From a virus (lineage: Duplodnaviria; Heunggongvirae; Uroviricota; Caudoviricetes): a DNA stretch of 64,000 nt. Positions 26,181 to 37,621 of the stretch are shown here, in pieces. The position numbers and the translations under genes were made by a program. The first letter of the stretch is position 1. Each line of letters opens with the position of its first letter. Under the pieces are notes generated by a model that was not told where the DNA came from, did no database searches, and saw nothing but the letters and a program-made list of their open reading frames with translations. The DNA lies in IMG/VR virus record IMGVR_UViG_3300015615_001160, positions 18,526 to 82,525 of that record; one strand, given 5' to 3'.

Positions 26181-26759
26181 TTAACCCAGGAAGTGCGCCC
26201 AGTCGGCTACGCCGTGCTGATTGCGGATGAACGCCGACGCGGGTTTCTCGCGCGGAGCGACCGGGTGCTGGTGCAGGCGCAGCCCGGCCTCGTGCGGCAG
26301 GCGGTCCGCTTTGGCGGAATTCACCTCGCGGTGCGCAAGCACGCAGTTCTCCCAGTTCGTCTTGCCGCCGCGGGAGCGGGGCACGACTTGGTCGATGTTG
26401 CCCTCCTTCGGCGAAAGCTTGCGGCCAGTGTATTGGCACACGCCGCCGTCGCGCTCCCAGATGCCGCGCATCCCAAAGCGCGGGCGGCGCATCGGCACGC
26501 GGGCGTAGTTCATCGCGATGACGACCGTCGGCACGCGCACTGGGCCGCGTGCGGTGTTTACTGCGTAGTCGCACTCCCGCACCGGCAGCGTGAGCCACGC
26601 ACTCCATTTCGTCGGCACAAACGCACCCTCGGAAATATCGAGCGCCGTGGCGGCGTCGGACGCCATCATGCAAAACGCCTCCGCGGGCGTCTTCACGTGG
26701 ATCGCCTGCCAATGCCGATTCAGCACCAGCACGGTCGTTTTGTTGAGGATGTTATTCAT
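26181..26759 (-). CDS. HNH endonuclease domain protein
   Basis: 192 aa. HNH core DQVVPRSRGGKTNWENCVLAHREVNSAKADR. It is the last gene of the minus-strand RtcB block and starts with MNN at 26757-26759. Confidence 0.7.
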   Translation of the reverse strand: MNNILNKTTVLVLNRHWQAIHVKTPAEAFCMMASDAATALDISEGAFVPTKWSAWLTLPVRECDYAVNTARGPVRVPTVVIAMNYARVPMRRPRFGMRGIWERDGGVCQYTGRKLSPKEGNIDQVVPRSRGGKTNWENCVLAHREVNSAKADRLPHEAGLRLHQHPVAPREKPASAFIRNQHGVADWAHFLG

Positions 26760-26870
26760 CGGAAAAAAGTTTAGCTAACAACTGATAGTCATAAGGTAGC
26801 GTGACCGCTTGGTGAATGGCAGCGCGCAGCGCTGCCATTCACCAATCACCGATCACACTTTACAAGTGTC

Positions 26871-28274
26871 TTAGTCTTCCGCGCGGTCACCCGCCGGACA
26901 CATCTTCACGAGTTTCGGGTCGAAGCGGCCGAGCACATCGACGAGGTCCGTCTGCGCCGACATCACTTGCGCGATGTCCTTGTAGACGCCCGGCACTTCG
27001 TCGAGGCCGGCGGAGAGCAGTTCCACGCCAGCGGCGGCGAGTTGTTTCTTCACCGCGCTCCACGTGAACGACTGCAATGCCTTGCTGCGGCTCATCACCC
27101 GGCCCGCGCCGTGCGACGCGCTGTGCAGCGACTCGGGCGAGCCCTTGCCGCGTACGACATAGCCCGGCGATGCCATGGAACCCGGGATAACACCCAGCAC
27201 TCCGGCGCCCGCCGGCGTCGCGCCCTTGCGGTGCACGACGACCTCGCGCTCTTCCCCATTCACGACATGCGTTTCTTTCCACGCGAAGTTGTGATGGTTT
27301 TCGATGTCGAGGATCACATGCCCACCGAGCTTTTTCGCGATGTGCCGGTGGATGAGTGCGTGGTTCGCCGCTGCGTAACGGCCCATCAAGTTCATCGCGG
27401 CCCAGTATTCCTGGCCGTCGGCGTCGTCGAGCGAGAGCCACGCGAGGTGCTTGAGTTCCTTCGGCAGGTGCTCGTGGCGGGCCATCGCGCGCTTGCTGTA
27501 GACTTCGCACACCTTCGCGCCGGTTCCGCGCGAGCCCGAGTGCGAGAGTAGCGCGAGATATTCTCCCGGCTCGAGGCCCAGGGTCTGTGCCTGCTCCGCA
27601 TCGACGGTGAACGCACCGAACTCGACGAAGTGGTTGCCACTTCCGCTCGTGCCGAGCTGCGACCACGCCTTGTCGCGCAGTTGCTTCGTCACGGGCGCCA
27701 CGGACCAGTCTTCGTCCATCACGTCGTGCTCGCGGCGCTGCTTGAACTGGCAGCCCATACCGAACCGCGTCTCGTCTTCGAGGATGTTCGCGAGCCGATC
27801 GCGCTGGCCGGCGAGGGTGCTCGCCTTGCGGTCATACACCGTCAGCTTCATGCGGCACGCGATGTCCACGCCGACGGCGTAAGGAATCACCGCGTTGTCG
27901 GTCGCGAGCACACCGCCGATCGGCAGGCCGTAGCCCACGTGCGCATCCGGCATCAACGCGCCCGCCACCGCGACCGGCAGCGCACACGCATTCGCCATTT
28001 GCTTCACCGCCTCGGCTTCGAGCCCTTCGCCCCACTGACGCCACGGCGCGAGTTCTGCGCGCGGCGTAAACGGCGGGCGATAGATCGCCCGCGCCAGCGG
28101 TGCCCGCAGCTCGTCGGCAAAGAAAGCCGTTGGATTGGCGACGATGTTGAAGATTTCGCCCTCCAGTAACGCGCCGTCATTTCCCCGCGCGATGAAGTTC
28201 TGGATGAACTCGTGCGCAACTTGGATCGGCCCGCCCATCGGCACGCCGAGGCGGATGAGGTCTTTGGTGTTCAT
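26871..28274 (-). CDS. rtcB: RtcB RNA ligase (joins 3'-phosphate/2',3'-cyclic phosphate to 5'-OH)
   Basis: RtcB family signatures MPDAHVGYGLPIGG, GSGNHF, SASHGAGR. Start chosen at MNTKDLIRLGVPMGG (ATG 28272-28274). An in-frame upstream ATG at 28307 would add 11 aa. Confidence 0.9.
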   Translation of the reverse strand: MNTKDLIRLGVPMGGPIQVAHEFIQNFIARGNDGALLEGEIFNIVANPTAFFADELRAPLARAIYRPPFTPRAELAPWRQWGEGLEAEAVKQMANACALPVAVAGALMPDAHVGYGLPIGGVLATDNAVIPYAVGVDIACRMKLTVYDRKASTLAGQRDRLANILEDETRFGMGCQFKQRREHDVMDEDWSVAPVTKQLRDKAWSQLGTSGSGNHFVEFGAFTVDAEQAQTLGLEPGEYLALLSHSGSRGTGAKVCEVYSKRAMARHEHLPKELKHLAWLSLDDADGQEYWAAMNLMGRYAAANHALIHRHIAKKLGGHVILDIENHHNFAWKETHVVNGEEREVVVHRKGATPAGAGVLGVIPGSMASPGYVVRGKGSPESLHSASHGAGRVMSRSKALQSFTWSAVKKQLAAAGVELLSAGLDEVPGVYKDIAQVMSAQTDLVDVLGRFDPKLVKMCPAGDRAED

Positions 28275-28408
28275 AGTGAGTTGGTTTGAAAATGTGCGTC
28301 GCCGCACGCGGACACAATGCGAGTGCGCAGCGGTGTTTGTTCTTTTTGTCGGAAAGTCTGCAGCCGGGAAGGGTTCATGCCCTCCCCGGCTGTACCACTA
28401 CTAGTTCC

Positions 28409-29218
28409 TCAATCGAGGAAGGCGACGTTCGCCATGGTGCGGGTGGTGTTCTCGGTGTTCATCCAGACTTGGTGCCAGCCATGCAGTGTGATGGTGGCGT
28501 GGTCCGGGTGCCGTATCGTGCCGCGCGCATAGACTTGCGCGTCACGTGTTCGGCGTTGCCAGCCCCAGTGGTTGGCTTCTGGCTGCTCCACGATGAGCTG
28601 CTTGTAGTGCTGGACTGTGATCCCATTCGGGAAACGCGCGCAGACATACACTTGCTCACCGCCAGTGCGGAACAGCTCTGCCACCCAGTGCGGCTTGCCA
28701 CCACCACCGCGGCTGATCGGCTCGTGACGATGCACGAGCTTCCCATCCACGTGCAGGCCTGGCACTGGCACGAAGAACCATTCACCCTGACGGATGAAGG
28801 CTCGGTTGTGACGCCGCACGCGTTGCCCGGGGTTCAAGCGAGCCTGATCCGCGGCTTCGCGAACCTTCGGCGGCAGCAGGGCGAGCTTCGCCTGCAATAC
28901 CGTCGAGGCACCGCCTGGCACCGCGGCCACGAACCATTCCCGCTCATCGTGACCACAGAGGAAGCGATCATTCGCTGCCGGTGTCTTGACGAGCAGAAGG
29001 AGGTGTCGGTCGTGTCGGTCGCACTGGAGCACATCCGCATCGAGGTGCGTTTCGCGCTGGGCGCTCAACTGCATCTCGAAAACCTGACCGCGTTTATCGG
29101 CGGCCAGGTCGATGGCATAGTCCGCACGTCGGCGGCTCCACGGTAGATTTTCTGGACGAACGATCCGGAACCGCGCGCCCATGTGGGCGAACTGGTTCGC
29201 GATCGATTTAGAGTTCAT
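28409..29218 (-). CDS. Hypothetical protein (about 270 aa) between rtcB and the nucleotidyltransferase gene
   Basis: Start chosen at MNSKSIANQF (29218). The longer ORF running to 29434 would overrun the tRNA-Lys-like gene and a hairpin. Confidence 0.5.
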   Translation of the reverse strand: MNSKSIANQFAHMGARFRIVRPENLPWSRRRADYAIDLAADKRGQVFEMQLSAQRETHLDADVLQCDRHDRHLLLLVKTPAANDRFLCGHDEREWFVAAVPGGASTVLQAKLALLPPKVREAADQARLNPGQRVRRHNRAFIRQGEWFFVPVPGLHVDGKLVHRHEPISRGGGGKPHWVAELFRTGGEQVYVCARFPNGITVQHYKQLIVEQPEANHWGWQRRTRDAQVYARGTIRHPDHATITLHGWHQVWMNTENTTRTMANVAFLD

Positions 29219-29230
29219 ATCTTGGAATTG

Positions 29231-29252
29231 GGTCGCGCGGCTTGGCGCGACC
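29231..29252. promoter_or_regulatory. Perfect 8-bp stem hairpin just upstream of the hypothetical gene start
   Basis: ggtcgcgc ggcttg gcgcgacc, followed on the plus strand by gattgcgttttctttcc. Confidence 0.3.
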
Positions 29253-29367
29253 GATTGCGTTTTCTTTCCGGGCCTTGCGAGCCCGAGACGACTTGATGCG
29301 GTAGTGGACAGACATTGGTTTTGATGGTGGTGGGTTGGTGAATTCGTGGCGTTGAAGACCACGATGT

Positions 29368-29439
29368 GAAAAAGTGAACCCGTAGGGACTTGCACCCTCC
29401 TCAGCCGCTTAAGAGGCGGCGGCTTCGCTCTCAAAGCTT
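29368..29439 (-). tRNA. tRNA-Lys(CTT)-like gene; non-canonical, no encoded CCA
   Basis: Minus-strand sense gaacccg aa gctt..aagc c gccgc ctcttaa gcggc .. gaggg tgcaagt cccta cgggttc a. Perfect 7-bp acceptor and 5-bp anticodon stem; loop cT-CTT-aa. T-loop is TGCAAGT (G55) and position 8 is A. A paralog with a TTT anticodon lies at 32518-32589. Confidence 0.55.
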
Positions 29440-29472
29440 CGGGTTCTTAAATTAAAGCAGTGGGGAGCGATG

Positions 29473-29513
29473 GCCCCGCCGGTGTTGCCCGATTGCAGTC
29501 ACCGGCGGGGCGT
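29473..29513 (-). terminator. Strong hairpin immediately after the nucleotidyltransferase stop codon (minus strand)
   Basis: 12-bp perfect GC-rich stem gccccgccggtg / caccggcggggc. It begins 8 nt past the TGA at 29521-29523. Confidence 0.5.
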
Positions 29514-29520
29514 CCTCCTC

Positions 29521-30297
29521 TCAAGCGGAGAGCGCGTAACGGCGGAAGAAGCTATTCAGCTCCTCGACGCTGCCTGCGGCGTCGTCGCGCTCGTTGAGCG
29601 CTTCGAGTCTTGGCAGTTCGGCCTCGATGAAGCGCGAGAGCACTTCGACCGGCGGCGCGACCGCCAGTTCGTCGCCGGCCTGTTTGCGCGCGATGAGTTC
29701 ATCGAGCGCGGCGCGCACGTCGGATTCTTCGAGTACACTCTCGACGAGTTGTGCGAAGAGCATGGGCACCTGGCCGAGTTGGCGCTCGATCCAGCGGCAC
29801 GCTAGCAGCGGTCGGAAGACGTAGAGATACTTCTTCAGGCTCACCATCTCGCGCCCGCGGAGGTAGTCGCGCCAGTTGCCGAAGGCCATGTGCAGGTAGT
29901 GGGCGAAGCAGCGCCGCTGCGAATAGAATTCCTCCGCGAGCGCGCCAAACTCGGCACTGAAGACCGGCTCGTGGCGATACACGATCGGTGACTTCAGCCA
30001 CTCGAGCAGCGGCGGGTTGCTCTTGCGGAGCAGGCGCAACGCCTTGCGCAGCTCCCAACCGCTGACGTCGAGATCGTCGGCGAGTGGGCGCTCGATCACG
30101 TCGCGCCGATCCTCGACCGAGAGATACCAGTCGCGCCGATGCACGTAGAGAAAGCGCACGTCGTAGTCGCTGTCGCGCGAGGCAAAGCCCCACGCACGGC
30201 TGCCGCTCTCGCACGCGAAGAGCACGCGGACGTTTCGCTCGGCCTCGACCTGAGCGAGCGCGTCGCGGACGCGCTGGAAAACTTCGTTCCCATTCAT
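29521..30297 (-). CDS. Predicted nucleotidyltransferase (Pol-beta/MNT superfamily) in the RtcB neighbourhood
   Basis: 258 aa. GS...D.D motif in VLFACESGSRAWGFASRDSDYDVRFLYV. A helical C-terminal domain follows. Confidence 0.65.
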   Translation of the reverse strand: MNGNEVFQRVRDALAQVEAERNVRVLFACESGSRAWGFASRDSDYDVRFLYVHRRDWYLSVEDRRDVIERPLADDLDVSGWELRKALRLLRKSNPPLLEWLKSPIVYRHEPVFSAEFGALAEEFYSQRRCFAHYLHMAFGNWRDYLRGREMVSLKKYLYVFRPLLACRWIERQLGQVPMLFAQLVESVLEESDVRAALDELIARKQAGDELAVAPPVEVLSRFIEAELPRLEALNERDDAAGSVEELNSFFRRYALSA

Positions 30298-30372: not shown

Positions 30373-30900
30373 TTAGATGGGGAGCCGCACTTTTGCGTAG
30401 AGCAGGCCGTCGATGAATTCATCATCGCGGAAGTAGTATGCGCGCAATCGGCCTTCGTGCGTGTAGCCGGCCTTCTCCAGCACCCGAGCGGAAGCCGGGT
30501 TGCGTGCGAAGACATGGGCGTGCAACCGCACGAGGTTTAGCTCTCGGAAGGCCCATTCCGTCATCGCGTCGAGCGCTTCCGTGGCGATCCCGCGGCCCCA
30601 GAGTGTCTCGCCGAGCCAGTAGCCGATTTCCGCGGTATGCTGGCGCGCGGTTACACCGCTGGGGTTCACTTCGACGCCGATGCCACCGACGATCTGGTCG
30701 TCGATGGCGATGCCGAAGTTGGTTTCCGGATCCTGTTTAGTGGCAAAGTCGATCCACCATTCCGCATTCTGCAGCGAATAGGGATGGGGGATGTGTAACA
30801 TATTGCGCGCAACGCTGTAGCTGCCGATGTGCGTGGAAATCGACTCGGCGTCGCCGGGACGAAAGGAACGAATGGTGGATTTGGAGAGGGTGAGTTGCAT
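30373..30900 (-). CDS. GNAT family N-acetyltransferase (RimJ/RimL-like)
   Basis: 175 aa. IGYWLGETLWGRGIATEALDAMTEWAF ... ARNPASARVLEKAGYTHEGRLR matches Acetyltransf_3-type. Confidence 0.75.
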   Translation of the reverse strand: MQLTLSKSTIRSFRPGDAESISTHIGSYSVARNMLHIPHPYSLQNAEWWIDFATKQDPETNFGIAIDDQIVGGIGVEVNPSGVTARQHTAEIGYWLGETLWGRGIATEALDAMTEWAFRELNLVRLHAHVFARNPASARVLEKAGYTHEGRLRAYYFRDDEFIDGLLYAKVRLPI

Positions 30901-30930
30901 GGGGTGGATGGTGAAAGTTTCAGCCCGAAA

Positions 30931-30958
30931 CCCCGGTGGAGACAGAGATCCACCGGGG
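30931..30958. repeat. Palindromic (REP-like) element, copy 1
   Basis: ccccggtgga gacagaga tccaccgggg: a 10-bp perfect stem. It is near-identical in design to copy 2 at 31394. Confidence 0.5.
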
Positions 30959-31393
30959 TTGCGAGGTTACCGGATTGCAGCGCGAACCCGGTGTGCAAGT
31001 TCGGTCGGGCATGAAGTTCGGCGCCGGTGGAAGGGGTGATTTTTGGATTAGTACGATGGTTCGCGTGTTGATGGACGGATCATCAGCGTATCTCTCAGCA
31101 GGGCTCCGGGTCCGGCTCGCTCGCTCAGCAGAATCCGAAGCGGCACGCCCGCCAGCGATGTGCTGTGGGGCAACCGGTCGAACGGAGTTCCTTTGCGAGT
31201 ATGTCTCGCGATAGGCTGAGATCTCAGTCGAACAGCTCCGAGGAGGAAAACCCCGATGAGGATGACGCCATGACCCAGAATGGCTGGGTCGGGCATGGTG
31301 GGTGGGTGGGTTGGAAAATGAGCAAGCCCGCCCGATTGATCTCGGAAGGGATCGAGCGCGGAGAGCCGTGTGGGCGTTCGCGCGGAGGATCAC

Positions 31394-31458
31394 CCCGGCG
31401 GAGCGAGTTCTCCGCCGGGGCTTGTTCCTCCCTCGCAATTTTTTGTTTCACGTTTCGT
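31394..31458 (+). terminator. Palindromic element copy 2 plus a T-tract; a plus-strand rho-independent terminator-like structure
   Basis: ccccggcgga gcgagttc tccgccgggg followed by cttgttcctccctcgcaattttttgtttc. Confidence 0.4.
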
Positions 31459-32245
31459 CCGTCTCCGTTGCGGTTGGCTTGACGCCGCGCGTGTGGAGAG
31501 CGGGGAGCAGGGTCGACAGGTCGTTCATCACGAACGTCTGGCCTGCGGTGGACGCTTCGAGCGTTTGCAGGAAGCGGAGGGTGGCGAGTGCGGGCTGGCC
31601 TTCGATGAGGCGCGCGGCATTGGCGAGGTTGCGCAGCGCGGCGGATTCGGCGCGGGCGCGTTCGAGCGCGGCCTGGCCTTCCTGCTTCGCCTTGAGCACT
31701 TCGCTGAAGGCCTTGCGCAGTTCGCCCGGCAGCATCACATCGCGCACGTCGGCCGCGTGGACTTGCACGCCGACAGCTTCCGCTTGTGGCGCGATGAGTT
31801 CGCGGAGTTGCGCGCCGATGGCGACACGCTGCGTGAGCAGGGCTTCCATCGGCACTCCGGCAACGACGGTGCGAACGGCGGCCTGCGTGGCGTTGTAAAT
31901 GTGGGCCGCGTAGTTGTCCGCAGCCTGCACGCTCTTCGCCGCATCCACGATCTGCGTGGTGAGCACGACGCTGAGCTTCACGCCGACGTTGTCGGCGCTG
32001 AGCACTTCCTGGCCCGCGACCTGGAGGAGCGTCTTGCGGATGTCCACGGCGACGAGGCGGTAGTTGCGGCCCCAGCGGATGTGACGGCCCGCTGGCAGCG
32101 TGCTCACGAGCTGGCCTTCGTGGAAGAGCAGGCCCGCGTAGCCTTCGGTGACGATGAACTCGTGGTGGTAGCGAGTGCACGCAATATTAGTCACGAGCAA
32201 ACCGGCGCCAAGGAGAGCGACGATGAGAATATCTTGGGTGGTCAT
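31448..32245 (-). CDS. Band-7 / SPFH (stomatin-prohibitin) domain membrane protein
   Basis: 265 aa with an N-terminal TM segment (ILIVALLGAGLLVTNIA) followed by an SPFH domain. Band-7 proteins are recurrent partners of RtcB-type RNA repair operons. Confidence 0.8.
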   Translation of the reverse strand: MTTQDILIVALLGAGLLVTNIACTRYHHEFIVTEGYAGLLFHEGQLVSTLPAGRHIRWGRNYRLVAVDIRKTLLQVAGQEVLSADNVGVKLSVVLTTQIVDAAKSVQAADNYAAHIYNATQAAVRTVVAGVPMEALLTQRVAIGAQLRELIAPQAEAVGVQVHAADVRDVMLPGELRKAFSEVLKAKQEGQAALERARAESAALRNLANAARLIEGQPALATLRFLQTLEASTAGQTFVMNDLSTLLPALHTRGVKPTATETDET

Positions 32246-32391: not shown

Positions 32392-32420
32392 GTGGATGGA
32401 TGGGATTCGAACCCAGTCGG
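32392..32420 (-). other. tRNA 3'-end-like fragment with a canonical T-arm (GGGTTCGAATCCC) and no matching 5' acceptor strand
   Basis: Minus sense ...gactgggttcgaatcccatccatcca. No complementary acceptor strand was found within 120 nt. It may be an att-type remnant or a decayed unit. Confidence 0.3.
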
Positions 32421-32517
32421 CGGTGAGCCGATGACCAGCCGCCGGATGGTCGATGTGCAGGACCAGTCGCGGCGATGCCGCCTGGCTGCGGGTGTATTTT
32501 TCCGGCGGAAGAGGAAA

Positions 32518-32589
32518 TGAACCCGTAGGGACTTGCACCCTCCTCAGCCGCTTAAAAGGCGGCGGCTTCGCTCTCAAAGCTTCGGGTTC
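32518..32589 (-). tRNA. tRNA-Lys(TTT)-like; paralog of the 29368 unit
   Basis: Identical to the 29368 unit except the anticodon loop is cT-TTT-aa. Confidence 0.55.
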
Positions 32590-32594
32590 GGAAA

Positions 32595-32672
32595 TGGATA
32601 GTCGCGGCAGGATTTGCACCCGCACTGGCTGCGTTCTCGACGCAGTGCCTCTTCTCGTTGGGCTACGCGACC
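32595..32672 (-). tRNA. tRNA-like, Leu anticodon GAG, class-I architecture
   Basis: Acceptor ggtcgcg/cgcgact; anticodon stem ctgcg/cgcag with loop tcGAGaa (C33); T-arm gcggg TGCAAAT cctgc. Confidence 0.45.
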
Positions 32673-32753
32673 GTCGGTGATTTTGGAAATAGTCCTCCGG
32701 CATTGGGTGGCCGAAGGCCTGGAGCAAGTCTCGCGAAGCGAGACGCGTGGAAA

Positions 32754-32828
32754 GGCTCCCGTGGTGGGACTCGCACCCACTAGGACTCGTGTGAAAGACG
32801 AGACGCTCGGCTCTTTGCATTCACGGGC
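32754..32828 (-). tRNA. tRNA-Glu(TTC)-like
   Basis: Anticodon stem ctcgt/acgag with loop cT-TTC-ac; T-arm gtggg TGCGAGT cccac. Confidence 0.45.
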
Positions 32829-32840
32829 ATTTGCTGAAAG

Positions 32841-32931
32841 TGGCGGAACGCGGAGGGCATGCTCCCCAACCCGCAACGCGGATCGATCTCCTTAGCACGG
32901 AGTCCCGGCACGCTCGTCCGGTTCACGTTCC
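32841..32931 (-). tRNA. tRNA-Ser(GCT)-like, class II with a long variable arm
   Basis: Acceptor ggaacgt/gcgttcc + G + CCA; anticodon loop gT-GCT-aa; variable arm ccgc gtt gcgg; T-loop AGCATGC. Confidence 0.5.
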
Positions 32932-32937
32932 ACATCG

Positions 32938-33011
32938 TGCCCGCGGCGAGATTTGCACTCGCACTGTCCGAGGTTTGAGCTCGGTGGCTCTGCTCGTTGG
33001 CCTACGCGGGC
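32938..33011 (-). tRNA. tRNA-like, Leu anticodon CAA, class I
   Basis: Acceptor gcccgcg/cgcgggc perfect; anticodon stem ccgag/ctcgg with loop cT-CAA-ac; T-arm gcgag TGCAAAT ctcgc. Confidence 0.5.
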
Positions 33012-33022
33012 GTGGAAAAAAA

Positions 33023-33094
33023 TGCTCCCGGTCGGAGTCGCACCGACACTGCGCGGGGTTTAAGTCCGCTGCCTCTGCGTTGGGCTACGGGAGC
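33023..33094 (-). tRNA. tRNA-like, Leu anticodon TAA, class I
   Basis: Acceptor gctcccg/cgggagc perfect; loop cT-TAA-ac; T-arm gtcgg TGCGACT ccgac. Confidence 0.45.
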
Positions 33095-33103
33095 TTTGAA
33101 AAA

Positions 33104-33990
33104 TGGGACTGCGGGTTGAGACTAAACCCACAGGCATCATCTCCTTCGCGCGGATTATTCGAGGCTTGCGGCCTCTATTCCCGGCTTGTCCTCGGCGACT
33201 GACCCGAAAGTCACATCGACGAGCGATGACACGATTGCCTTTGTTAACGAGGTGGCATTTCCCCGTAGATGGTCAGCTACTCTACCTCCGTCCTACCGCC
33301 AGCCTTGCGGGCTGTGAGAGGCGCGACCCTCGACGTGCGGACTCGGGTAAACTTCGCGGGCCTTGCGGGCCGTGGAAGTCTCCATTGCCTTGCGGCTGAA
33401 GAATTAAATCGTTTTCGCTGACGACCGGCGGCGTCTTTGCATTTTTTTGGCGATGCAGGATTTCTCCTGCGACCTCCGGCTTTCGAAGCCGACGCTCTGT
33501 TCTGAGCTAATCGATAACCCACCACGATGTGCGCCGCCTGTCGTGCCGAATCCTTTTGGGACTCGATATGCGACACACCGTGTGACTTTCCCTTGCGGGT
33601 ACTCATCGTGTCCTGGCGATCGCGTCCGCCTCCTTGCCTTTTGGGCTCGGCAGCGTCCGCTTCCGCGCGACATGCAGCAGGCGCCTCGTTTGCGGCTTGG
33701 CGTCTACTGCTCCCCTTGTTCCCTCAACACTGGACGTTTTGCTGGAAAGGCACGCCTTGCGAAGGGGCGTTCCTGCTCCTACGGAGTTACCCTCGGAACA
33801 GTTTCCCTTTCCCGTCGTCATGTATACCTCGGCCGCATTTGACTGCGACAAGGCTATGGGACCTGGGTTTGCTTGAATGTCCTCGAGTGAACGAGGCGCG
33901 GGCGTGTGGGCCGTTTCCGCTTTTGGCCGTCTCGCGACGGTTTATCTTTCATCCCTTGCGGGACCTGGAGATCAAGCTCCCCAGTTTTTA
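33104..33990 (-). ncRNA. About 880-bp non-coding segment inside the array with a recurring CCTTGCGGG motif; candidate large structured RNA and/or decayed tRNA units
   Basis: No convincing ORF and no regular spacers. CCTTGCGG(G) occurs at 33304, 33361, 33385, 33590, 33764 and 33953. At least one tRNA-like unit (33448-33516) is embedded. Confidence 0.3.
33448..33516 (-). tRNA. tRNA-like unit with a good D-arm (gctc/gagc) and a T-loop-like anticodon loop ttCGAaa
   Basis: The acceptor is imperfect and the assignment is uncertain. Confidence 0.25.
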
Positions 33991-34018
33991 AATAGTGAAA
34001 TGGGTGATAGTAAGAAAG

Positions 34019-34095
34019 TGGTCCCGGCGGCAGGAGTTGCACCCGCACTGGCTCCGGTCTGAGCGGAGTGTCTCTGCTTGTTGGACTACGCCGGG
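34019..34095 (-). tRNA. tRNA-like, Leu anticodon CAG, class I
   Basis: Acceptor cccggcg/cgccggg perfect + A + CCA; anticodon stem ctccg/cggag with loop cT-CAG-ac; T-arm gcggg TGCAACT cctgc. Confidence 0.5.
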
Positions 34096-34104
34096 AAAAA
34101 GGAG

Positions 34105-34180
34105 TGGTGCTCTCGGCAGGAGTTTCGCCCGCAACCTCCGCGTTCGAAGCGCGGCACTCTAGACATTGAGCTACGAGAGC
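34105..34180 (-). tRNA. tRNA-Arg(TCG)-like
   Basis: Acceptor gctctcg/cgagagc; D-stem gctc/gagt; anticodon stem ccgcg/cgcgg with loop cT-TCG-aa; CCA encoded. Confidence 0.5.
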
Positions 34181-34191
34181 ATGGATGGAAA

Positions 34192-34268
34192 TGGCTGCCC
34201 CGGATGGATTCGCGCCATCAACCTCCCGGTTCAGAGCCGGGCGCTCTCGCTGTTTGAGCTACAGGGCA
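34192..34268 (-). tRNA. tRNA-Gln(CTG)-like
   Basis: D-stem gctc/gagc; anticodon stem cccgg/ccggg with loop cT-CTG-aa; T-arm gatgg CGCGAAT ccatc; disc G + CCA. Confidence 0.55.
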
Positions 34269-34273
34269 ACATG

Positions 34274-34345
34274 ATCCGCCAACCGGAGTTGCACCGGTCT
34301 CTCGCCGATACCAGCGGCGTGCGTCGCTCACAACGCTTTGGCGGA
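34274..34345 (-). tRNA. tRNA-Thr(GGT)-like
   Basis: Acceptor tccgcca/tggcgga perfect; D-stem gcgt/acgc; anticodon stem cgccg/cggcg with loop cT-GGT-at; T-arm accgg TGCAACT ccggt. Confidence 0.5.
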
Positions 34346-34355
34346 GTTTGAAATG

Positions 34356-34429
34356 ATCAGGCACCTCGGTGCTGCCCCGAGTATCTCGCCGATCCGAACG
34401 GCGCGGATTGCTGTCTTCCTCGTGCCTGA
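34356..34429 (-). tRNA. tRNA-Pro(CGG)-like
   Basis: Acceptor tcaggca/tgcctga perfect; anticodon stem cgccg/cggcg with loop tT-CGG-at; T-arm ctcgg GGCAGCA ccgag. Confidence 0.5.
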
Positions 34430-34431
34430 AT

Positions 34432-34572
34432 GAAATAACTGGAGCCACGGGGAATGCTCGCGCGGCAGCGCTTCGACACGAGTCGTGGAGCGCTGGCTGC
34501 ATAGCGGCAGGAGCCGCAATCGCACCCCGATCTGCGCAATGCCAATGCGTCGTCTGGCTATTGGACTATGGC
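34432..34572 (-). ncRNA. About 140-nt structured repeat. It has a nested-hairpin 5' half and a tRNA-like 3' half (possible Ala GGC loop). It is a paralog of the element at 35940-36080
   Basis: The ggagcgctggctgcat and caatcgcacc blocks are shared with the 35940 copy. There is a nested hairpin cagcgct...cgac acga gtcg...agcgctg. Confidence 0.3.
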
Positions 34573-34579
34573 CCCGACA

Positions 34580-34655
34580 TGGACGCGCGCCCCGGACTCG
34601 CACCGGGTAATTCGGTTTTGCAGACCGATGGTTCGACGGCTTTGCCTTGCGCGCG
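34580..34655 (-). tRNA. tRNA-Cys(GCA)-like
   Basis: Acceptor cgcgcgc/gcgcgcg; anticodon stem tcggt/accga with loop cT-GCA-aa; T-arm cccgg TGCGAGT ccggg; T + CCA. Confidence 0.5.
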
Positions 34656-34667
34656 TTTTTTTGTGAT

Positions 34668-34743
34668 GGGGGTGACCGTCGGGATTCGCACCCGAATCTT
34701 CTGGTTCACGGCCAGAAACTCTGACTCTTGAGCTACGGCCACA
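34668..34743 (-). tRNA. tRNA-His(GTG)-like
   Basis: Acceptor gtggccg/cggtcac (one G.U); anticodon stem tctgg/ccaga with loop cc-GTG-aa (C33); T-arm tcggg TGCGAAT cccga. Confidence 0.4.
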
Positions 34744-34766
34744 GCTTCTTCCTGTGTTGTGGAAAG

Positions 34767-34843
34767 TGGATCCTCCGGCCGGCGCTGCCCCGGCATGGTC
34801 TTCTTTACGAGAGAAGTGCATTGCTGGCCTCTGCCACGGAGGA
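34767..34843 (-). tRNA. tRNA-Thr(CGT)-like
   Basis: Acceptor tcctccg/cggagga perfect; anticodon stem cttct/agaag with loop cT-CGT-aa; T-arm gccgg GGCAGCG ccggc; T + CCA. Confidence 0.5.
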
Positions 34844-34853
34844 ACGGGATGAA

Positions 34854-34930
34854 TGGTGCTCCCGCGAGGACTTGCACCTCGAGCTTCCGCCTTCGCAGGG
34901 CAGCGTGCAGGACTCTTACACTTCGGGAGC
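34854..34930 (-). tRNA. tRNA-Arg(GCG)-like
   Basis: Acceptor gctcccg/cgggagc; anticodon stem ctgcc/ggcgg with loop cT-GCG-aa; T-arm cgagg TGCAAGT cctcg; A + CCA. Confidence 0.5.
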
Positions 34931-34939
34931 TAATGAAAA

Positions 34940-35014
34940 TGGTGCGCCATGCCGGTGCCGCCCCGGCGCTGTGTCTTTGGAAGAGACGCGTGCTCGCTGT
35001 TACACCAATGACGC
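34940..35014 (-). tRNA. tRNA-Gly(TCC)-like
   Basis: Acceptor gcgtcat/atggcgc; anticodon stem cgtct/agaca with loop cT-TCC-aa; T-arm gccgg GGCGGCA ccggc; A + CCA. Confidence 0.5.
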
Positions 35015-35024
35015 TTTGGAAAAA

Positions 35025-35099
35025 TGGTGGCTGCTTCCGGTATCGCGCCGGACTCCCCTCGGCTTCAGCGAGGTGCTAATCTATCTCAGCTACACAGCC
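35025..35099 (-). tRNA. tRNA-Phe(GAA)-like
   Basis: D-stem gctg/tagc; anticodon stem cctcg/cgagg with loop cT-GAA-gc; T-arm tccgg CGCGATA ccgga; A + CCA. Confidence 0.5.
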
Positions 35100-35153
35100 G
35101 TTCGACAGGCTCACGGCCTGCGGCCCTTCGACGAAGTTTCGTCTTTGGGCAAA
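35100..35153. other. Short non-tRNA spacer with two small hairpins (ggcc tgc ggcc; gacga agtt tcgtc followed by tttggg)
   Basis: It does not fold as a cloverleaf. It may be an intra-array processing or terminator-like element. Confidence 0.3.
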
Positions 35154-35154
35154 G

Positions 35155-35228
35155 TGGTCCCTCCGCGCGGTATCGCGCCGCGGTCTCTCGCTTATCGGGC
35201 GAGGGCTCTGCTTTTGAGCTACGGAGGG
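35155..35228 (-). tRNA. tRNA-Ile(GAT)-like
   Basis: Acceptor ccctccg/cggaggg perfect; D-arm gctc aaaagca gagc; anticodon stem ctcgc/gcgag with loop cc-GAT-aa (C33); T-arm cgcgg CGCGATA ccgcg; A + CCA. Confidence 0.5.
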
Positions 35229-35237
35229 TTTTGGAAA

Positions 35238-35311
35238 TGGTCGCTCGAGGTGGTAACGCTCCACCGTTTGTCGGATGTCGGCCGGCCGTTCTGCTTTTGA
35301 ACTATCGAGCG
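35238..35311 (-). tRNA. tRNA-Val(GAC)-like
   Basis: Acceptor cgctcga/tcgagcg + A + CCA; D-arm gttc aaaagca gaac; loop cc-GAC-at; T-arm ggtgg AGCGTTA ccacc. Paralog of the next unit, with compensatory stem changes. Confidence 0.5.
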
Positions 35312-35322
35312 ATGCGAAAGAA

Positions 35323-35396
35323 TGGTCGCCCGACGTGGTAACGCTCCACGGTCTTCCGGATGTGAGCCGGCCGTTCTCCTTTTGAACTATCAGGCG
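35323..35396 (-). tRNA. tRNA-Val(CAC)-like
   Basis: Acceptor cgcctga/tcgggcg; T-stem cgtgg/ccacg (compensatory relative to ggtgg/ccacc in the previous unit); loop cT-CAC-at. Confidence 0.5.
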
Positions 35397-35409
35397 AAAA
35401 TGAAAATGA

Positions 35410-35481
35410 TACCCGCGCCCGGTAATGCTCCGGGGTTTTCTGATGAAGAATCAGCCGTGCTGACGATTGCACCATGCGGGT
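35410..35481 (-). tRNA. tRNA-like unit, anticodon region ambiguous (possibly CTT)
   Basis: D-stem gtgc/gcac perfect; T-arm cccgg AGCATTA ccggg. The anticodon stem and loop can be drawn two ways (ttCTTca with a 4-bp stem, or a 5-nt loop). Confidence 0.3.
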
Positions 35482-35489
35482 TTTTGAAA

Positions 35490-35564
35490 TGGCTCCTCCC
35501 CTTGGCATCGCACCAAGCTCACACCGCTTAACAGGCGGGCCGCACACTCTGTGCGTTGAGAGGA
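35490..35564 (-). tRNA. tRNA-Asn(GTT)-like
   Basis: Acceptor tcctctc/gggagga; D-stem cgca/tgcg; loop cT-GTT-aa; T-arm cttgg TGCGATG ccaag; G + CCA. Confidence 0.45.
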
Positions 35565-35575
35565 ATGTGTCGTTT

Positions 35576-35650
35576 TACTCCCGGCAGGAGTTGCACCTGC
35601 GTAGTTCCATTTAGAAGATGGATGCCTATGTACTGCTCGGCCACGGGAGC
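35576..35650 (-). tRNA. tRNA-Arg(TCT)-like
   Basis: Anticodon stem tccat/atgga perfect with loop cT-TCT-aa; T-arm gcagg TGCAACT cctgc; no CCA. Confidence 0.45.
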
Positions 35651-35661
35651 GTGGATAGAAA

Positions 35662-35736
35662 GGGTCGCGCGCCTCGGTGCTGCCCCGAGTGTCTCCTCGT
35701 CCCAAGCGAGGCGGGTTGCTGTCTCCCTCGCGCGCG
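35662..35736 (-). tRNA. tRNA-Pro(TGG)-like
   Basis: Acceptor cgcgcgc/gcgcgcg; anticodon stem cctcg/cgagg with loop cT-TGG-ga; T-arm ctcgg GGCAGCA ccgag. Confidence 0.45.
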
Positions 35737-35759
35737 TCACGGTGTCGTGTCGTGTGAAA

Positions 35760-35836
35760 TGGCGGCCTGTGCGGGCTTTGCTCCCGCGCCCTTCCGCTCG
35801 ACAGGCGGCTGCTCTTCGTGGCTGAGCTAACAGGCC
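35760..35836 (-). tRNA. tRNA-Asp(GTC)-like
   Basis: Acceptor ggcctgt/acaggcc perfect; D-stem gctc/gagc; loop cT-GTC-ga; T-arm gcggg AGCAAAG cccgc; G + CCA. Confidence 0.5.
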
Positions 35837-35846
35837 ATGGTGAAAT

Positions 35847-35935
35847 TGGTGGGTTGTGTCGGTAATGCTCCGACGCTGGTCCGGCTGGACATCCGCTTTA
35901 CAGGCGGCTCGCGATCTTTACGTGACTAACAACCC
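35847..35935 (-). tRNA. tRNA-Tyr(GTA)-like, class II
   Basis: Acceptor gggttgt/acaaccc perfect + A + CCA; loop cT-GTA-aa; variable-arm hairpin gtcc agcc ggac; T-arm gtcgg AGCATTA ccgac. Confidence 0.5.
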
Positions 35936-35939
35936 GAAA

Positions 35940-36160
35940 TGGTTGCGGGACGTGGAATGCGTGGCGCGGTAGCGCCGTTGCTGGACGACGCGGAGCGCTG
36001 GCTGCATGGACGCCGGAGCGTCAATCGCACCACGATACGAGGGCGTATGAAACTCTCTTGGTTTTGCCGCTCCGGCGGCTATGCGAAGTGCGCTCCGCGT
36101 CCATGGTGTGAACGTGCTTGCGCGCGAGTGCATTCAACCTTCCCGCGATTGAATGGTGAA
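35940..36160 (-). ncRNA. Structured repeat(s) not resolved as tRNA; includes the paralog of the 34432 element
   Basis: Shares ggagcgctggctgcat...caatcgcacc with 34432-34572. Contains hairpins ggcgc ggta gcgcc and gcgctccg/cggagcgc. Confidence 0.3.
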
Positions 36161-36161
36161 A

Positions 36162-36236
36162 TGGTGGACCGCCACGGCTTTGCACCGTGCTCTTCCGCTT
36201 GCGAGGCGAATGACCTCCTGAATGATCGAGCGGCCC
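36162..36236 (-). tRNA. tRNA-Ala(CGC)-like
   Basis: Acceptor gggccgc/gcggtcc; anticodon stem ttcgc/gcgga with loop cT-CGC-aa; T-arm cacgg TGCAAAG ccgtg; A + CCA. Confidence 0.45.
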
Positions 36237-36244
36237 AGGAAAAT

Positions 36245-36321
36245 TGGTAGCGGGGGCCGGATTTGAACCGGCGAATTGACGGCTTATGAGGCCGTTGCCT
36301 TAACCACTTGGCGACCCCGCA
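36245..36321 (-). tRNA. tRNA-Met(CAT); the most canonical unit (GG in the D-loop, TTCAAAT T-loop), with a 1:72 mismatch (initiator-like)
   Basis: gcggggtcgccaaGTGGTTAAggca acggc cT-CAT-aa gccgt ... gccgg TTCAAAT ccggc ccccgct A CCA. Confidence 0.6.
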
Positions 36322-36333
36322 GTCTGTGGAAAG

Positions 36334-36408
36334 TGGCACAGCGTCTCGGTGCTGCCCCGAGCCCGCGGAGTTTTGGAGACTCTGCTGCGCGAGCTGGCGC
36401 CCGCTGTG
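36334..36408 (-). tRNA. tRNA-like unit (acceptor and T-arm clear; body unresolved)
   Basis: Acceptor cacagcg/cgctgtg; T-arm ctcgg GGCAGCA ccgag. Confidence 0.3.
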
Positions 36409-36426
36409 TTTCACGATTGGAAAAAT

Positions 36427-36500
36427 TGGTGCGGTCAGCCGGACTTGCACCGGCATCCTCTGATTGGCACTCAGACATCCTTCTCTTGAACGATGACCGC
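36427..36500 (-). tRNA. tRNA-Gly(GCC)-like
   Basis: Acceptor gcggtca/tgaccgc perfect + A + CCA; anticodon stem tctga/tcaga with loop gT-GCC-aa; T-arm gccgg TGCAAGT ccggc. Confidence 0.5.
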
Positions 36501-36502
36501 AT

Positions 36503-36544
36503 AGGAGCGGCGCGGGCTGCGATTCTGTGCGCACCCGCGCCGCT
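36503..36544. promoter_or_regulatory. 12-bp perfect-stem hairpin at the upstream (right) end of the array
   Basis: gagcggcgcggg ...17 nt... cccgcgccgctc. Confidence 0.3.
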
Positions 36545-37621
36545 CTTCTGACAAAAAAGAACAAACACCGCTGCCTCCCTTCCGACATAGTCGGGGACGC
36601 ACCCGCAGGATTGTTTCACGGCGGATCTTTCGGTGTTTCAGGCACACCTCCCGGTGCACGGATATGATAGTTATCCATGCGAAGCCTCTGGACTGGAAAA
36701 GCCAGGGGCGAGAAATCAGACAATGCAGACCTGCGAACGAGTGATAGCTATCGACTCGCTTGACAGTTTCACCATGAGCTGCCACCATTCGGTGGTTACT
36801 AACTCACGATCGTCTCGGCTAGGGACTTATCTGGATTGGTGACCGATTTCACCCCGTCGTCAGTTGCCGCTGGCGGCGGGGTTTTTATCGCCCACGTGGT
36901 GGTTTGAAATGTGGTGTTCGTTCGGTGGGGTTTTGTTGTGGGGTTAGGAGGCGGCAAGGCCGCGGCTGGAGAAAGTGGGAAAAACCCTCGGAAAATGAGA
37001 AACCCTGCTGGGCTTTTCGGCCGAGCAGGGTTCTCGAAATCTACGGATCTGGATGAGATCGTGAGTTACCTGCTGGCCTCCTTGGTAATGTTTTCTTCGG
37101 CGAAACTCGGTCGCGAATTGGTTGCCTGGGCATCGGACGTATAGCCGACCCAACCGTTGCCACGGAGCATACCCGAGCAACGCAACCTGTCGGTCGCCTG
37201 CGTATGTATGGGTGATGTTCTTAGTGGCTTCATTGGTAGTGAATGTGACGTTTGATAGACCCGTAAAATGAATGGGTCAATAGCAATTTTTAAAAAAGTT
37301 TAAGGGGAGATATGTTAGTGATGGATAACAAATGTGGAAATGCTCCGGCGCTGGAGAGCGTGAGGATATGAATTTTCATGGCCCAAGACGAGTGCAGTCT
37401 GCGGTGTGTCTTATGCGACTTAATTCGGCGGGATATTTGCGGGAATGGATGATAGTTCGAGATCGAACTTTAATCTGTCTGGGCGGCGAGAATCGAGTGT
37501 CTGTCGCAGGCGCGCGAGTGGCCTGGCTCTGGCAGCCGGATATGCGGCGACCGCTGGGCGTGTCGATGGCCACTACAGTTTCGTGGTTTGAGCACACGGA
37601 TGAAGCCTCCGTGTGTATCCC

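What the first reader, a model, noticed from the sequence alone, without database searches (positions are those of the whole stretch)
33104..33990. 880-bp ORF-less insert inside the array with six copies of CCTTGCGG(G); candidate large structured ncRNA
The regular spacer/unit rhythm stops for about 880 bp. The segment has no credible ORF, many local hairpins and a recurring 8-9-mer. Large ornate ncRNAs (GOLLD and ROOL classes) are characteristically found next to tRNA clusters in prophage-like DNA. A group II or other intron, or a block of decayed units, are alternatives.
Basis: inference. Interest (0 to 1): 0.55.

Follow-up and report, generated by a model that had tools for sequence, protein, structure and literature searches.

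The report
GOLLD RNA gene inside tRNA array
The 880-bp gap in the tRNA gene array is a minus-strand gene for a GOLLD RNA, a known giant structured non-coding RNA that forms RNA-only nanocages, so it is a real feature but a new member of a known family, not a new kind of element.

Summary
Window 33103-33989 (minus strand) is a GOLLD RNA gene.

- **3' half (33113-33583):** it matches Rfam RF02032 end to end at 165.4 bits (gathering score 150, E about 1e-44). Its consensus helices covary across 13 relatives.
- **5' half (33584-33985):** no Rfam model covers it. It is 82-87% conserved in three metagenome contigs, with compensatory changes and a covarying long-range loop pairing.
- **The recurring CCTTGCGG:** on the RNA strand it reads CCGCAAGG, the cap of a GCAA-tetraloop hairpin. 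There are seven CGCAAG cores, all in one orientation.
- **tRNA-like insert (33447-33516):** a degenerate tRNA-like element sits in the linker where other GOLLDs carry a tRNA.
- **No conserved ORF** lies in the block.
- **Clean 919-nt indel:** the block lies between tRNA-Leu(CAG) and tRNA-Leu(UAA). Sister Chthoniobacterales arrays lack it or carry it at another slot.

The setting is a chromosomal long tRNA array next to RtcB, RlaP and HNH genes in a verrucomicrobial genome, and I found no sign of a prophage. GOLLD in tRNA arrays, embedded tRNAs and a verrucomicrobial GOLLD are all already published. Cage assembly and biological function are inferred, not shown.

The parts
33103..33989 (-). Whole GOLLD RNA gene (about 880 nt): the block conserved in metagenome relatives
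   Evidence: blastn gives 87.1% identity over 877 nt to L093/L082 (window 33110-33983) and 83.3% over 904 nt to L089 (window 33103-33989). nhmmer gives full-length matches of 688 and 613 bits.
33113..33583 (-). Conserved GOLLD 3' domain
   Evidence: Rfam RF02032 match at 165.4 bits (gathering 150), E 1.3e-44, model 1-416 of 416, not truncated. In the window, 86 of 97 consensus pairs are standard pairs. Across 13 distinct relatives, 82.7% of cells are paired against 31-45% in shifted registers, and 43 pairs show double changes against 7-23.
33584..33985 (-). Lineage-specific GOLLD 5' domain, not covered by the Rfam model
   Evidence: Conserved in L082/L093 and L089. RNAalifold predicts 129 pairs with 98% of cells paired. 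Twelve pairs have double changes against 5.7 +/- 1.6 in shuffles (1 of 500 as high) and 1-2 in slid registers. The first ~150 nt and the junction also align with Prosthecobacter-type copies.
33447..33516 (-). Degenerate tRNA-like insert in the single-stranded linker of the 3' domain (J13/15 in published numbering)
   Evidence: Rfam tRNA match at 38.7 bits (gathering 29) inside the GOLLD match. ARAGORN does not call it. It has two acceptor-stem mismatches, no GG in the D loop, a 6-nt T loop (AGAAAU) and the anticodon loop UUCGAAA. The same slot holds better tRNAs in L082 (55.7 bits, called Leu-CAA) and L089 (64.7 bits, called Val-UAC). Prosthecobacter-type copies have none.
33164..33171 (-).
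33303..33310 (-). CCGCAAGG tetraloop hairpin cap (Rfam helix at model positions 254-270)
33361..33368 (-). CCGCAAGG tetraloop hairpin cap (Rfam helix with consensus loop CGCAA)
33388..33395 (-). CCGCAAGG tetraloop hairpin cap (first hairpin inside the multibranch helix)
33591..33598 (-). CCGCAAGG tetraloop hairpin cap at the junction of the 5' and 3' domains
   Evidence: alignment A1, columns 394-403
33755..33762 (-). UCGCAAGG variant in a 5' domain hairpin
33954..33961 (-). CCGCAAGG tetraloop hairpin cap, second hairpin of the 5' domain
   Evidence: alignment A1, columns 21-34; the closing pair covaries U-A to G-C
33972..33977 (-). Hairpin-loop hexamer GCUUGA of the first 5' domain hairpin, partner of 33871-33876
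   Evidence: Covaries with its partner across lineages.
33871..33876 (-). UCAAGC, the 3' partner of the loop hexamer, directly 5' of a conserved AARCC motif
   Evidence: Window GCUUGA:UCAAGC; L082 GCUUGA:UUAAGC; Prosthecobacter type GCAUGG:CCAUGC; L081 GCAUAG:CUAUGC.
33095..34013 (-). The 919-nt presence/absence block, relative to arrays that lack GOLLD
   Evidence: Empty sites read ...GGGACCA-CTTTC-GCTCCCGTAGCC... (L006, L008, L007, L016, L049). The window has the block exactly between CTTTC and GCTCCC.
34019..34095 (-). tRNA-Leu(CAG), the upstream neighbour on the RNA strand
   Evidence: ARAGORN; Rfam tRNA at 42.6 bits
33023..33094 (-). tRNA-Leu(UAA), the downstream neighbour on the RNA strand
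   Evidence: ARAGORN; Rfam tRNA at 45.6 bits
32518..36500 (-). Long same-strand tRNA array hosting the GOLLD gene: at least 16 called tRNA genes plus tRNA-like units
   Evidence: It is syntenic with arrays in Chthoniobacterales and Verrucomicrobiaceae genomes.
26181..30297 (-). Downstream RNA-repair and homing-endonuclease genes on the same strand: RlaP 29521-30297, tRNA-Lys(CUU) 29374-29446, RtcB 26871-28307, HNH 26181-26759
   Evidence: Pfam: RlaP 5.7e-92, RtcB 3.5e-87; HNH 3.7e-06.

Best explanation
Window 33103-33989 encodes, on the minus strand, a GOLLD-family non-coding RNA of about 880 nt inside a long chromosomal tRNA array of a Chthoniobacterales-like (Verrucomicrobiota) bacterium.

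Shown here:
- The 3' half is a full-length, above-threshold match to the GOLLD covariance model, and its helices covary.
- The 5' half is a conserved, structured, lineage-specific domain.
- The repeated CCTTGCGG is the DNA image of C-GCAA-G tetraloop hairpin caps.
- A decayed tRNA-like element occupies the linker.
- The block carries no conserved protein-coding frame.
- The gene is a discrete cassette that is present, absent or placed at another slot in otherwise syntenic arrays.

Inferred:
- The RNA is transcribed with the array. It lies on the same strand, the spacers are short, and a leader shared with L093 lies at about 36505-36580.
- It is released by the tRNA-processing enzymes that cut its flanking tRNAs.
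- By homology with the two GOLLD RNAs solved by cryo-EM, the 3' domains would form a ring and the 5' domains a cap of a homo-oligomeric RNA-only cage. The GNRA tetraloops and kissing loops would make the contacts, and the linker with its tRNA-like insert would point into the lumen.
- The cellular role of GOLLD is unknown in the field. Given the adjacent RtcB ligase, RlaP nucleotidyltransferase and supernumerary tRNAs, the most likely setting is tRNA supply, storage or repair during translational stress or phage-host conflict.
For: - **Family match:** Rfam GOLLD at 165.4 bits against gathering 150, E 1.3e-44, model 1-416 of 416, minus strand only.
- **3' domain structure:** 86 of 97 consensus pairs are standard in the window. 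Across 13 distinct relatives, 82.7% of cells are paired against 31-45% when slid, and 43 pairs show double changes against 7-23. The 10-bp multibranch closing helix covaries completely.
- **Relatives confirmed independently:** 13 relatives in genome and metagenome contigs also pass the GOLLD threshold at 151.9-210 bits.
- **5' domain:** 82-87% identical in L082/L093 and L089. Twelve pairs have double changes against 5.7 +/- 1.6 in shuffles. The loop-strand pairing GCUUGA:UCAAGC covaries in three lineages.
- **Strand:** all seven CGCAAG cores are in the RNA-sense orientation. Fold z is -3.2 for the minus strand and -1.1 for the plus strand.
- **Not coding:**
- **Cassette behaviour:**
- **Literature:** GOLLD RNAs exceed 800 nt, have a conserved 3' and a variable 5' domain, lie near tRNA islands, sometimes carry tRNAs in the linker, and form 12- or 14-mer cages (PMC12286853, PMC12990946). 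GOLLD has been reported inside mycobacterial tRNA clusters together with an internal pseudo-tRNA and an HNH gene (PMC6582537).
Against: - There are no expression data, so transcription, the RNA ends and processing are inferred.
- No sigma-70-like promoter was found in 32400-37400, though the scan is a simple consensus one.
- The Rfam score is only 15 bits above threshold, and 11 of 97 consensus pairs are non-standard in this copy. With the decayed internal tRNA, this leaves room for a degenerating copy.
- The 5' domain covariation rests on three close sequences, and the structure was predicted from those same sequences.
- The 3' domain counts use a MAFFT alignment, not one fitted to the model.
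- I could not show that this 5' domain corresponds helix for helix to the solved 5' domains. Sequence-only comparison with env-38 detects nothing, not even the shared 3' domain.
- Cage formation and any link to RtcB/RlaP are extrapolations.
Confidence: 0.93

Rival explanations
1. It is a decaying, no longer functional GOLLD relic left in the array after horizontal transfer.
For: The score is only modestly above threshold. Eleven consensus pairs are non-standard. The internal tRNA is more degenerate (38.7 bits, no ARAGORN call) than in L082 (55.7 bits) or L089 (64.7 bits). Most sister arrays lack the gene altogether.
Against: Substitutions between the window and its 82-87% identical relatives are preferentially compensatory in both domains, which indicates continuing selection on structure. 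All GC-rich verrucomicrobial copies score similarly (152-170 bits), so the modest score reflects the lineage and not decay in this copy.
Confidence: 0.05
2. The block is a string of mutated tRNA units, or a group I/II intron or other known RNA, rather than GOLLD.
For: One 70-nt segment does score as a tRNA, and the block sits in a tRNA array.
Against: No other part of the block scores as a tRNA. No intron, RNase P, tmRNA or ROOL model matches at E <= 1. No intron-encoded protein frame is conserved. The tRNA-like piece lies in the GOLLD linker, where tRNAs are documented (PMC12286853, PMC12990946).
Confidence: 0.01
3. The block encodes a small protein (for example the 154-aa + strand ORF at 33527-33991) and the RNA match is incidental.
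For: A stop-free frame of 157-203 codons exists on the + strand in all three close copies.
Against: The frames are not the same. Protein similarity jumps between frames along the copies because of 1- and 2-nt indels, and substitutions show no third-position excess (18/20/14). High G+C content makes such open frames common.
Confidence: 0.01

Closest known systems
GOLLD RNA family (Rfam RF02032), including the cryo-EM-solved env-38 (14-mer, PDB 9MEE) and Streptococcus agalactiae (12-mer, PDB 9L0R) members
   Same: Full-length match to the 3' domain model with covarying helices. Total size is about 880 nt. It has a two-domain layout with a variable 5' half, many GNRA-capped hairpins, a single-stranded linker that can hold a tRNA, and a location among tRNA genes (PMC12286853, PMC12990946).
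   Different: It is GC-rich (about 60%), and its 5' domain has no detectable sequence similarity to env-38. It has extra lineage-specific hairpins, for example the GCCGCAAGCC hairpin before the AUAAUCC motif. It lies in a chromosomal array with no phage genes nearby. Oligomer state is unknown.
GOLLD genes inside Mycobacterium/Mycolicibacterium tRNA arrays (Behra 2019, PMC6582537; Morgado 2020, cited in PMC12990946)
   Same: GOLLD is embedded mid-array with tRNA genes on both sides. It has an internal tRNA or pseudo-tRNA. An HNH endonuclease gene lies next to the array, and the array appears to have been acquired horizontally.
   Different: The phylum differs (Verrucomicrobiota, not Actinomycetota). 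The module here also carries RtcB and RlaP. In this lineage the internal tRNA-like element changes its anticodon loop between close copies (CGA, CAA, UAC). The GOLLD slot differs between syntenic arrays.
Long horizontally transferred tRNA arrays ('L-arrays', Santamaria-Gomez 2021, PMC8421152)
   Same: It is a same-strand array of at least 16 tRNA genes contributing extra isoacceptors. The neighbourhood is enriched in RNA-processing genes, including rtcB and a homing-type endonuclease.
   Different: That paper does not mention GOLLD (0 occurrences). Here a giant ncRNA gene is one of the array units.
ROOL RNA (the other cage-forming ornate RNA found near tRNA islands)
   Same: A large ornate RNA near tRNA clusters that forms RNA-only cages (PMC12286853).
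   Different: No ROOL model match in the region at E <= 1. Sequence and secondary structure are unrelated.

Membership tests
GOLLD RNA (RF02032) | Match to the curated covariance model at or above its gathering score, over the whole model | tested here: met
   165.4 bits against 150, E 1.3e-44, model 1-416 of 416, not truncated, minus strand.
GOLLD RNA (RF02032) | Conserved 3' domain secondary structure maintained by compensatory changes | tested here: met
   86 of 97 consensus pairs are standard in the window. In 13 relatives, 82.7% of cells are paired against 31-45% when slid, and 43 pairs show double changes against 7-23.
GOLLD RNA (RF02032) | Overall length of about 700-900 nt, with a less conserved but structured 5' domain upstream of the 3' domain | tested here: met
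   The conserved block is 887 nt. The 5' half has 12 pairs with double changes against 5.7 +/- 1.6 and a covarying loop pairing.
GOLLD RNA (RF02032) | 5' domain homologous helix for helix to the published P1-P13 architecture | tested here: inconclusive
   Sequence-only comparison with env-38 finds nothing, not even the shared 3' domain. The published secondary-structure figure is not available to the tools.
GOLLD RNA (RF02032) | Location next to or within tRNA gene clusters | tested here: met
   It is flanked directly by tRNA-Leu genes inside an array of at least 16 tRNA genes.
GOLLD RNA (RF02032) | Phage or prophage context (frequent, not obligatory) | tested here: not met
   No phage structural family was found among about 37 ORFs scanned. 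There was no match in the phage collection or in viral contigs. L093 is flanked by ordinary chromosomal genes. An integrase lies 16 kb away.
GOLLD RNA (RF02032) | tRNA embedded in the single-stranded linker (optional feature of some members) | tested here: met
   A tRNA-model match of 38.7 bits at 33447-33516 lies within the linker columns of the GOLLD alignment. It is degenerate here and better formed in L082 and L089.
GOLLD RNA (RF02032) | Self-assembly into a dihedral homo-oligomeric RNA cage | not testable with these tools
   This needs in vitro transcription followed by cryo-EM or mass photometry. The published contact nucleotides were not mapped onto this copy.
GOLLD RNA (RF02032) | Expressed as a stable RNA | not testable with these tools
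   No transcriptome data are available.
   None is listed at E <= 1 in 32900-34200, nor at gathering score in the whole window.
Long tRNA array (L-array) | Many same-strand, closely spaced tRNA genes with patchy distribution, and RNA-processing or homing-endonuclease neighbours | tested here: met
   The array content varies between related genomes.

The most novel reading that the evidence does not exclude
In Verrucomicrobiota, GOLLD behaves as a movable unit of chromosomal tRNA arrays that are physically coupled to an RtcB-RlaP tRNA-repair module. Its lumen-facing tRNA-like insert changes anticodon loop quickly between 82-87% identical copies (CGA, CAA, UAC). One reading not excluded by the evidence is that the cage stores, shields or displays a tRNA-shaped bait or substrate as part of a response to anticodon nucleases or translational stress. 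That would give GOLLD its first functional context outside phages.
Probability: 0.1. Interest if true: 0.6.

Novelty: new member of a known kind. Interest (0 to 1): 0.28.

Why it matters
GOLLD is one of the few natural RNAs known to build a closed cage larger than a ribosome, and its function is still unknown. This copy adds no new principle. It does supply a GC-rich verrucomicrobial lineage in which:
- the 5' domain is conserved and covaries;
- empty-site, alternative-slot and with- or without-tRNA variants sit side by side in syntenic arrays;
- the neighbours are tRNA-repair enzymes rather than phage genes.

That natural variation is useful for testing what the cage and its internal tRNA do. 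For annotation, the practical point is that the whole 880 bp should be labelled GOLLD, not only the 471 bp that the Rfam model covers.

Tried and rejected
- **Phage collection:** blastn of the block against 50,697 phage records gave no match.
- **Viral contigs:** two lineage-specific patterns, one from the 3' domain and one from the 5' domain, gave 0 matches.
- **Loci near RlaP:** nhmmer with the whole block against 80 such loci found only six Prosthecobacter/Verrucomicrobiaceae copies, and only their 3' domain matched. The 5' domain needed the metagenome scan.
- **Comparison with env-38:** a sequence-only profile detects nothing, not even the homologous 3' domain, so it cannot test 5' domain homology. 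My transcription of env-38 from the supplement has 815 nt against the published 833.
- **Promoters:** the sigma-70 scan was empty both in the window array and upstream of GOLLD in L093. The only terminator-like site inside the block is the final GOLLD hairpin.
- **Rejected readings:** protein-coding, decayed tRNA units, introns or ROOL, and prophage.
- **Not attempted:** building my own covariance model of the full RNA, because it exceeds the size that can be calibrated; and mapping the published intermolecular contact nucleotides onto this copy.

Full report
**1. The observation**

ARAGORN and Rfam place same-strand (minus) tRNA genes from 32518 to 36500. tRNA-Leu(UAA) lies at 33023-33094 and tRNA-Leu(CAG) at 34019-34095, leaving a 924-bp gap where neither tool calls a free-standing tRNA gene.

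CCTTGCGG occurs five times exactly in the gap. With two one-off variants, the core CTTGCG occurs seven times, at 7.6 per kb against 0.36 per kb elsewhere (Poisson P = 7e-8). It is always on the + strand.

Mechanical ORFs of up to 154 aa exist but are not conserved (section 4).

**2. What it is**

A whole-window scan against Rfam 15 gives one non-tRNA hit: GOLLD (RF02032) at 33113-33583 on the minus strand. It scores 165.4 bits against a gathering score of 150, with E 1.3e-44, and covers model positions 1-416 of 416. A permissive scan of 32900-34200 lists no ROOL, intron, RNase P or tmRNA match at E <= 1.

On the RNA strand it reads C-GCAA-G, a GNRA tetraloop closed by a C-G pair, which matches the model's own 'CGCAA' loops.

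Transferring the Rfam consensus structure to the window gives 86 standard pairs out of 97.

**3. Relatives and covariation**

*Finding relatives.* I anchored on the neighbouring RlaP gene and fetched 80 genomic loci. The best (up to 92% amino-acid identity) are Chthoniobacter, Chthoniobacterales and Verrucomicrobiaceae genomes, so the host is probably a member of Chthoniobacterales.

Only six of these loci carry a GOLLD, all of Prosthecobacter or Verrucomicrobiaceae type, and three of the six pass the Rfam threshold. A 3'-end pattern that matched exactly the seven known copies then retrieved 14 metagenome loci. Ten of these pass the GOLLD threshold at 155-210 bits.

*3' domain.* I projected the Rfam structure onto 13 distinct 3' domains. 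82.7% of cells are paired, against 31-45% in registers slid by 1-3 columns, and 43 pairs show double changes against 7-23. The 10-bp helix that closes the multibranch core reads:
- GGUCGUCAGC/GCUGACCAUC in the window
- GAUCGUAAGU/GCUUACGAUC in L082
- GGCGUGACGA/UCGUCACGCG in L029

*5' domain.* The Rfam model stops at 33583, but three metagenome contigs match the window across the whole block: L082 and L093 (identical to each other in this region) and L089. MAFFT identities are 85% and 82%; blastn identities are 87% and 83%.

RNAalifold on the three distinct 5' halves predicts 129 pairs. 98% of cells are paired. Twelve pairs have changes on both sides, against 5.7 +/- 1.6 in column shuffles (1 of 500 as high) and 1-2 in slid registers. 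One helix reads GCAGUAG/CUGCUGC, GCUAUAG/UUAUAGC and GCCACGG/UCGCGGC in the three copies.

The caveat is that the structure was predicted from these same three sequences.

*Independent support.* A hairpin-loop hexamer pairs with the six bases just 5' of a conserved AARCC motif, and the pairing covaries between deep lineages:
- window: GCUUGA:UCAAGC
- L082: GCUUGA:UUAAGC
- Prosthecobacter type: GCAUGG:CCAUGC
- L081: GCAUAG:CUAUGC

The first ~150 nt and the domain junction also align between lineages, while the middle of the 5' domain does not. This fits the published description of a variable 5' domain (PMC12286853).

*Strand.* The minus strand folds with z = -3.2 and the plus strand with z = -1.1.

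**4. Not coding**

The stop-free frames on the + strand are different frames in different copies. Protein similarity jumps from one frame to another along the alignment because of 1- and 2-nt indels. Substitutions between the window and L082 fall 18/20/14 on the three codon positions.

**5. The internal tRNA-like element**

Inside the GOLLD linker, 33447-33516 scores 38.7 bits with the tRNA model, but ARAGORN does not call it. It has:
- two acceptor-stem mismatches
- no GG in the D loop
- a shortened T loop without UUC
- the anticodon loop UUCGAAA

The same slot holds a better tRNA in L082 (55.7 bits, called Leu-CAA) and L089 (64.7 bits, called Val-UAC), and a tRNA-like element with a canonical T loop in L081. 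Prosthecobacter-type copies have a short linker and no tRNA.

So the tRNA shape is retained while the anticodon is not. Published work describes tRNAs in this linker (J13/15), pointing into the cage (PMC12286853, PMC12990946), and a pseudo-tRNA inside a mycobacterial GOLLD (PMC6582537).

**6. A cassette in the array**

The closest arrays (L006, L007, L008, L016, L049) read ...GGGACCA-CTTTC-GCTCCCGTAGCC..., with the two Leu tRNAs five bases apart. The window has 919 nt (33095-34013) exactly between CTTTC and GCTCCC.

The L093/L082 array is syntenic with the window's array: the leader at window 36531-36894 corresponds to L093 8060-8432, and the first tRNA at window 36500 corresponds to L093 9459. 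Yet its GOLLD, 87% identical, sits between the leader and the first tRNA.

In L089 the gene follows a protein-coding gene. In Prosthecobacter-type arrays it lies next to tRNA-Glu(UUC) and tRNA-Leu(GAG).

The gene is therefore gained, lost or moved as a unit. I did not establish the mechanism, and I saw no target-site duplication.

**7. Surroundings**

Downstream on the same strand lie:
- an SPFH protein
- an unknown ORF
- a GNAT acetyltransferase
- RlaP (5.7e-92)
- tRNA-Lys(CUU)
- an unknown ORF
- RtcB (3.5e-87)
- an HNH endonuclease

This is the neighbourhood described for horizontally transferred long tRNA arrays (PMC8421152). RlaP has recently been shown to act on damaged tRNA 3' ends (PMC12776372).

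No phage structural family was found among the ORFs scanned. L093 is flanked by ordinary chromosomal genes, and phage and viral collections gave nothing. An integrase, a resolvase and a type III-like restriction-modification cluster lie 10-28 kb away. I found no evidence that they belong to the same element.

**8. How it most likely works**

Shown: family membership, structure conservation in both halves, strand, and cassette behaviour.

Inferred from the solved structures (PMC12286853, PMC12990946): the 3' domains form a ring and the 5' domains a cap of a dihedral homo-oligomer. Contacts are made by tetraloop/A-minor interactions and kissing loops, and the linker with its tRNA-like insert lies inside.

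Inferred from gene order: transcription runs with the array from a leader near 36505-36580, and the RNA is released by tRNA-processing enzymes.

Function is unknown in the field. The link to tRNA repair or stress is a hypothesis.

**9. Novelty**

The following are already published:
- GOLLD in tRNA arrays
- internal tRNAs or pseudo-tRNAs
- an adjacent HNH gene
- a verrucomicrobial member: ABOX02000006.1 is in the published alignment, and ABOX is Pedosphaera parvula

This is a new member of a known kind. The modest additions are the conserved 5' domain of this lineage, the empty-site and alternative-slot variants, the drifting anticodon of the insert, and the RtcB-RlaP linkage.

**10. Limits**

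- No expression data.
- Small alignments.
- The 3' domain counts rest on a MAFFT alignment, not a model-fitted one.
- The correspondence of this 5' domain to the solved ones could not be tested.

Noticed in passing
window 54-25841 (+): A single 8,595-aa ORF (25.8 kb) with passenger-associated transport repeats (PATR, nine stretches in the C-terminal half) and a PA14 domain. It looks like a giant surface or adhesin-type protein. Its G+C (about 67%) is higher than that of the array region (about 60%).
   Followed up: partly
window 35989-36019 (-) and 36069-36099 (+); L064 10224-10295, L070, L073, L078, L015, L021, L049, L082: A ~70-nt dispersed repeat occurs as an inverted pair in a spacer of the tRNA array. 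In several relatives it sits inside the RlaP reading frame, at the position of window 29922/29923, and shifts the frame there. It may be a MITE/REP-like element, and those RlaP copies may be pseudogenes.
   Followed up: partly
window 32747-32829 (-) and 32838-32932 (-): Two array units that neither ARAGORN nor Rfam calls read by eye as non-canonical tRNAs. One is Glu(UUC)-like with an odd D arm. The other is Ser(GCU)-like with a long variable arm and an encoded CCA end. Both are conserved in related arrays.
   Followed up: no
window 34108-34180, 35158-35228, 35326-35396 (-); 34175-34250 (+): Three tRNAs are called by Rfam only (44-58 bits). One ARAGORN call, tRNA-Arg(TCG), lies on the opposite strand and overlaps tRNA-Gln(CTG), so it is probably a mirror-image artefact.
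   Followed up: no
window 26181-32245 (-): An RNA-repair style gene row lies downstream of the array: SPFH, an unknown 172-aa ORF, GNAT, RlaP, tRNA-Lys(CUU), an unknown ORF of up to 341 aa (28409-29434, its start overlapping the tRNA), RtcB and HNH. The two unknown ORFs have no Pfam or PHROG match but are conserved at the DNA level in relatives.
   Followed up: partly
window 36505-36580 (-) and 36851-36882 (+); L093 8060-8432: The array leader is conserved with L093: a T-rich stretch followed by a GC-rich hairpin (GCGGCGCGG...CCGCGCCGC) directly before the first array gene. A strong terminator-like hairpin of the upstream region is also conserved. No sigma-70 consensus was found.
   Followed up: partly
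window 44311-44961 (+), 50262-51470 (-), 51911-61886 (+): A serine resolvase, a tyrosine integrase with a DUF6900 N-terminus, and a cluster of SNF2-type helicase, N6/N4 DNA methylase and type III restriction helicase-endonuclease. This is probably a separate integrative or defence island next to the array.
   Followed up: no
L029 5893-5935, L030, L035, L038 (downstream of GOLLD): Prosthecobacter-type GOLLD genes are followed by an extra conserved hairpin (for example CGCGGTCTGCATGCCGGGACCGCG) before the next tRNA. The window copy lacks it.
   Followed up: no
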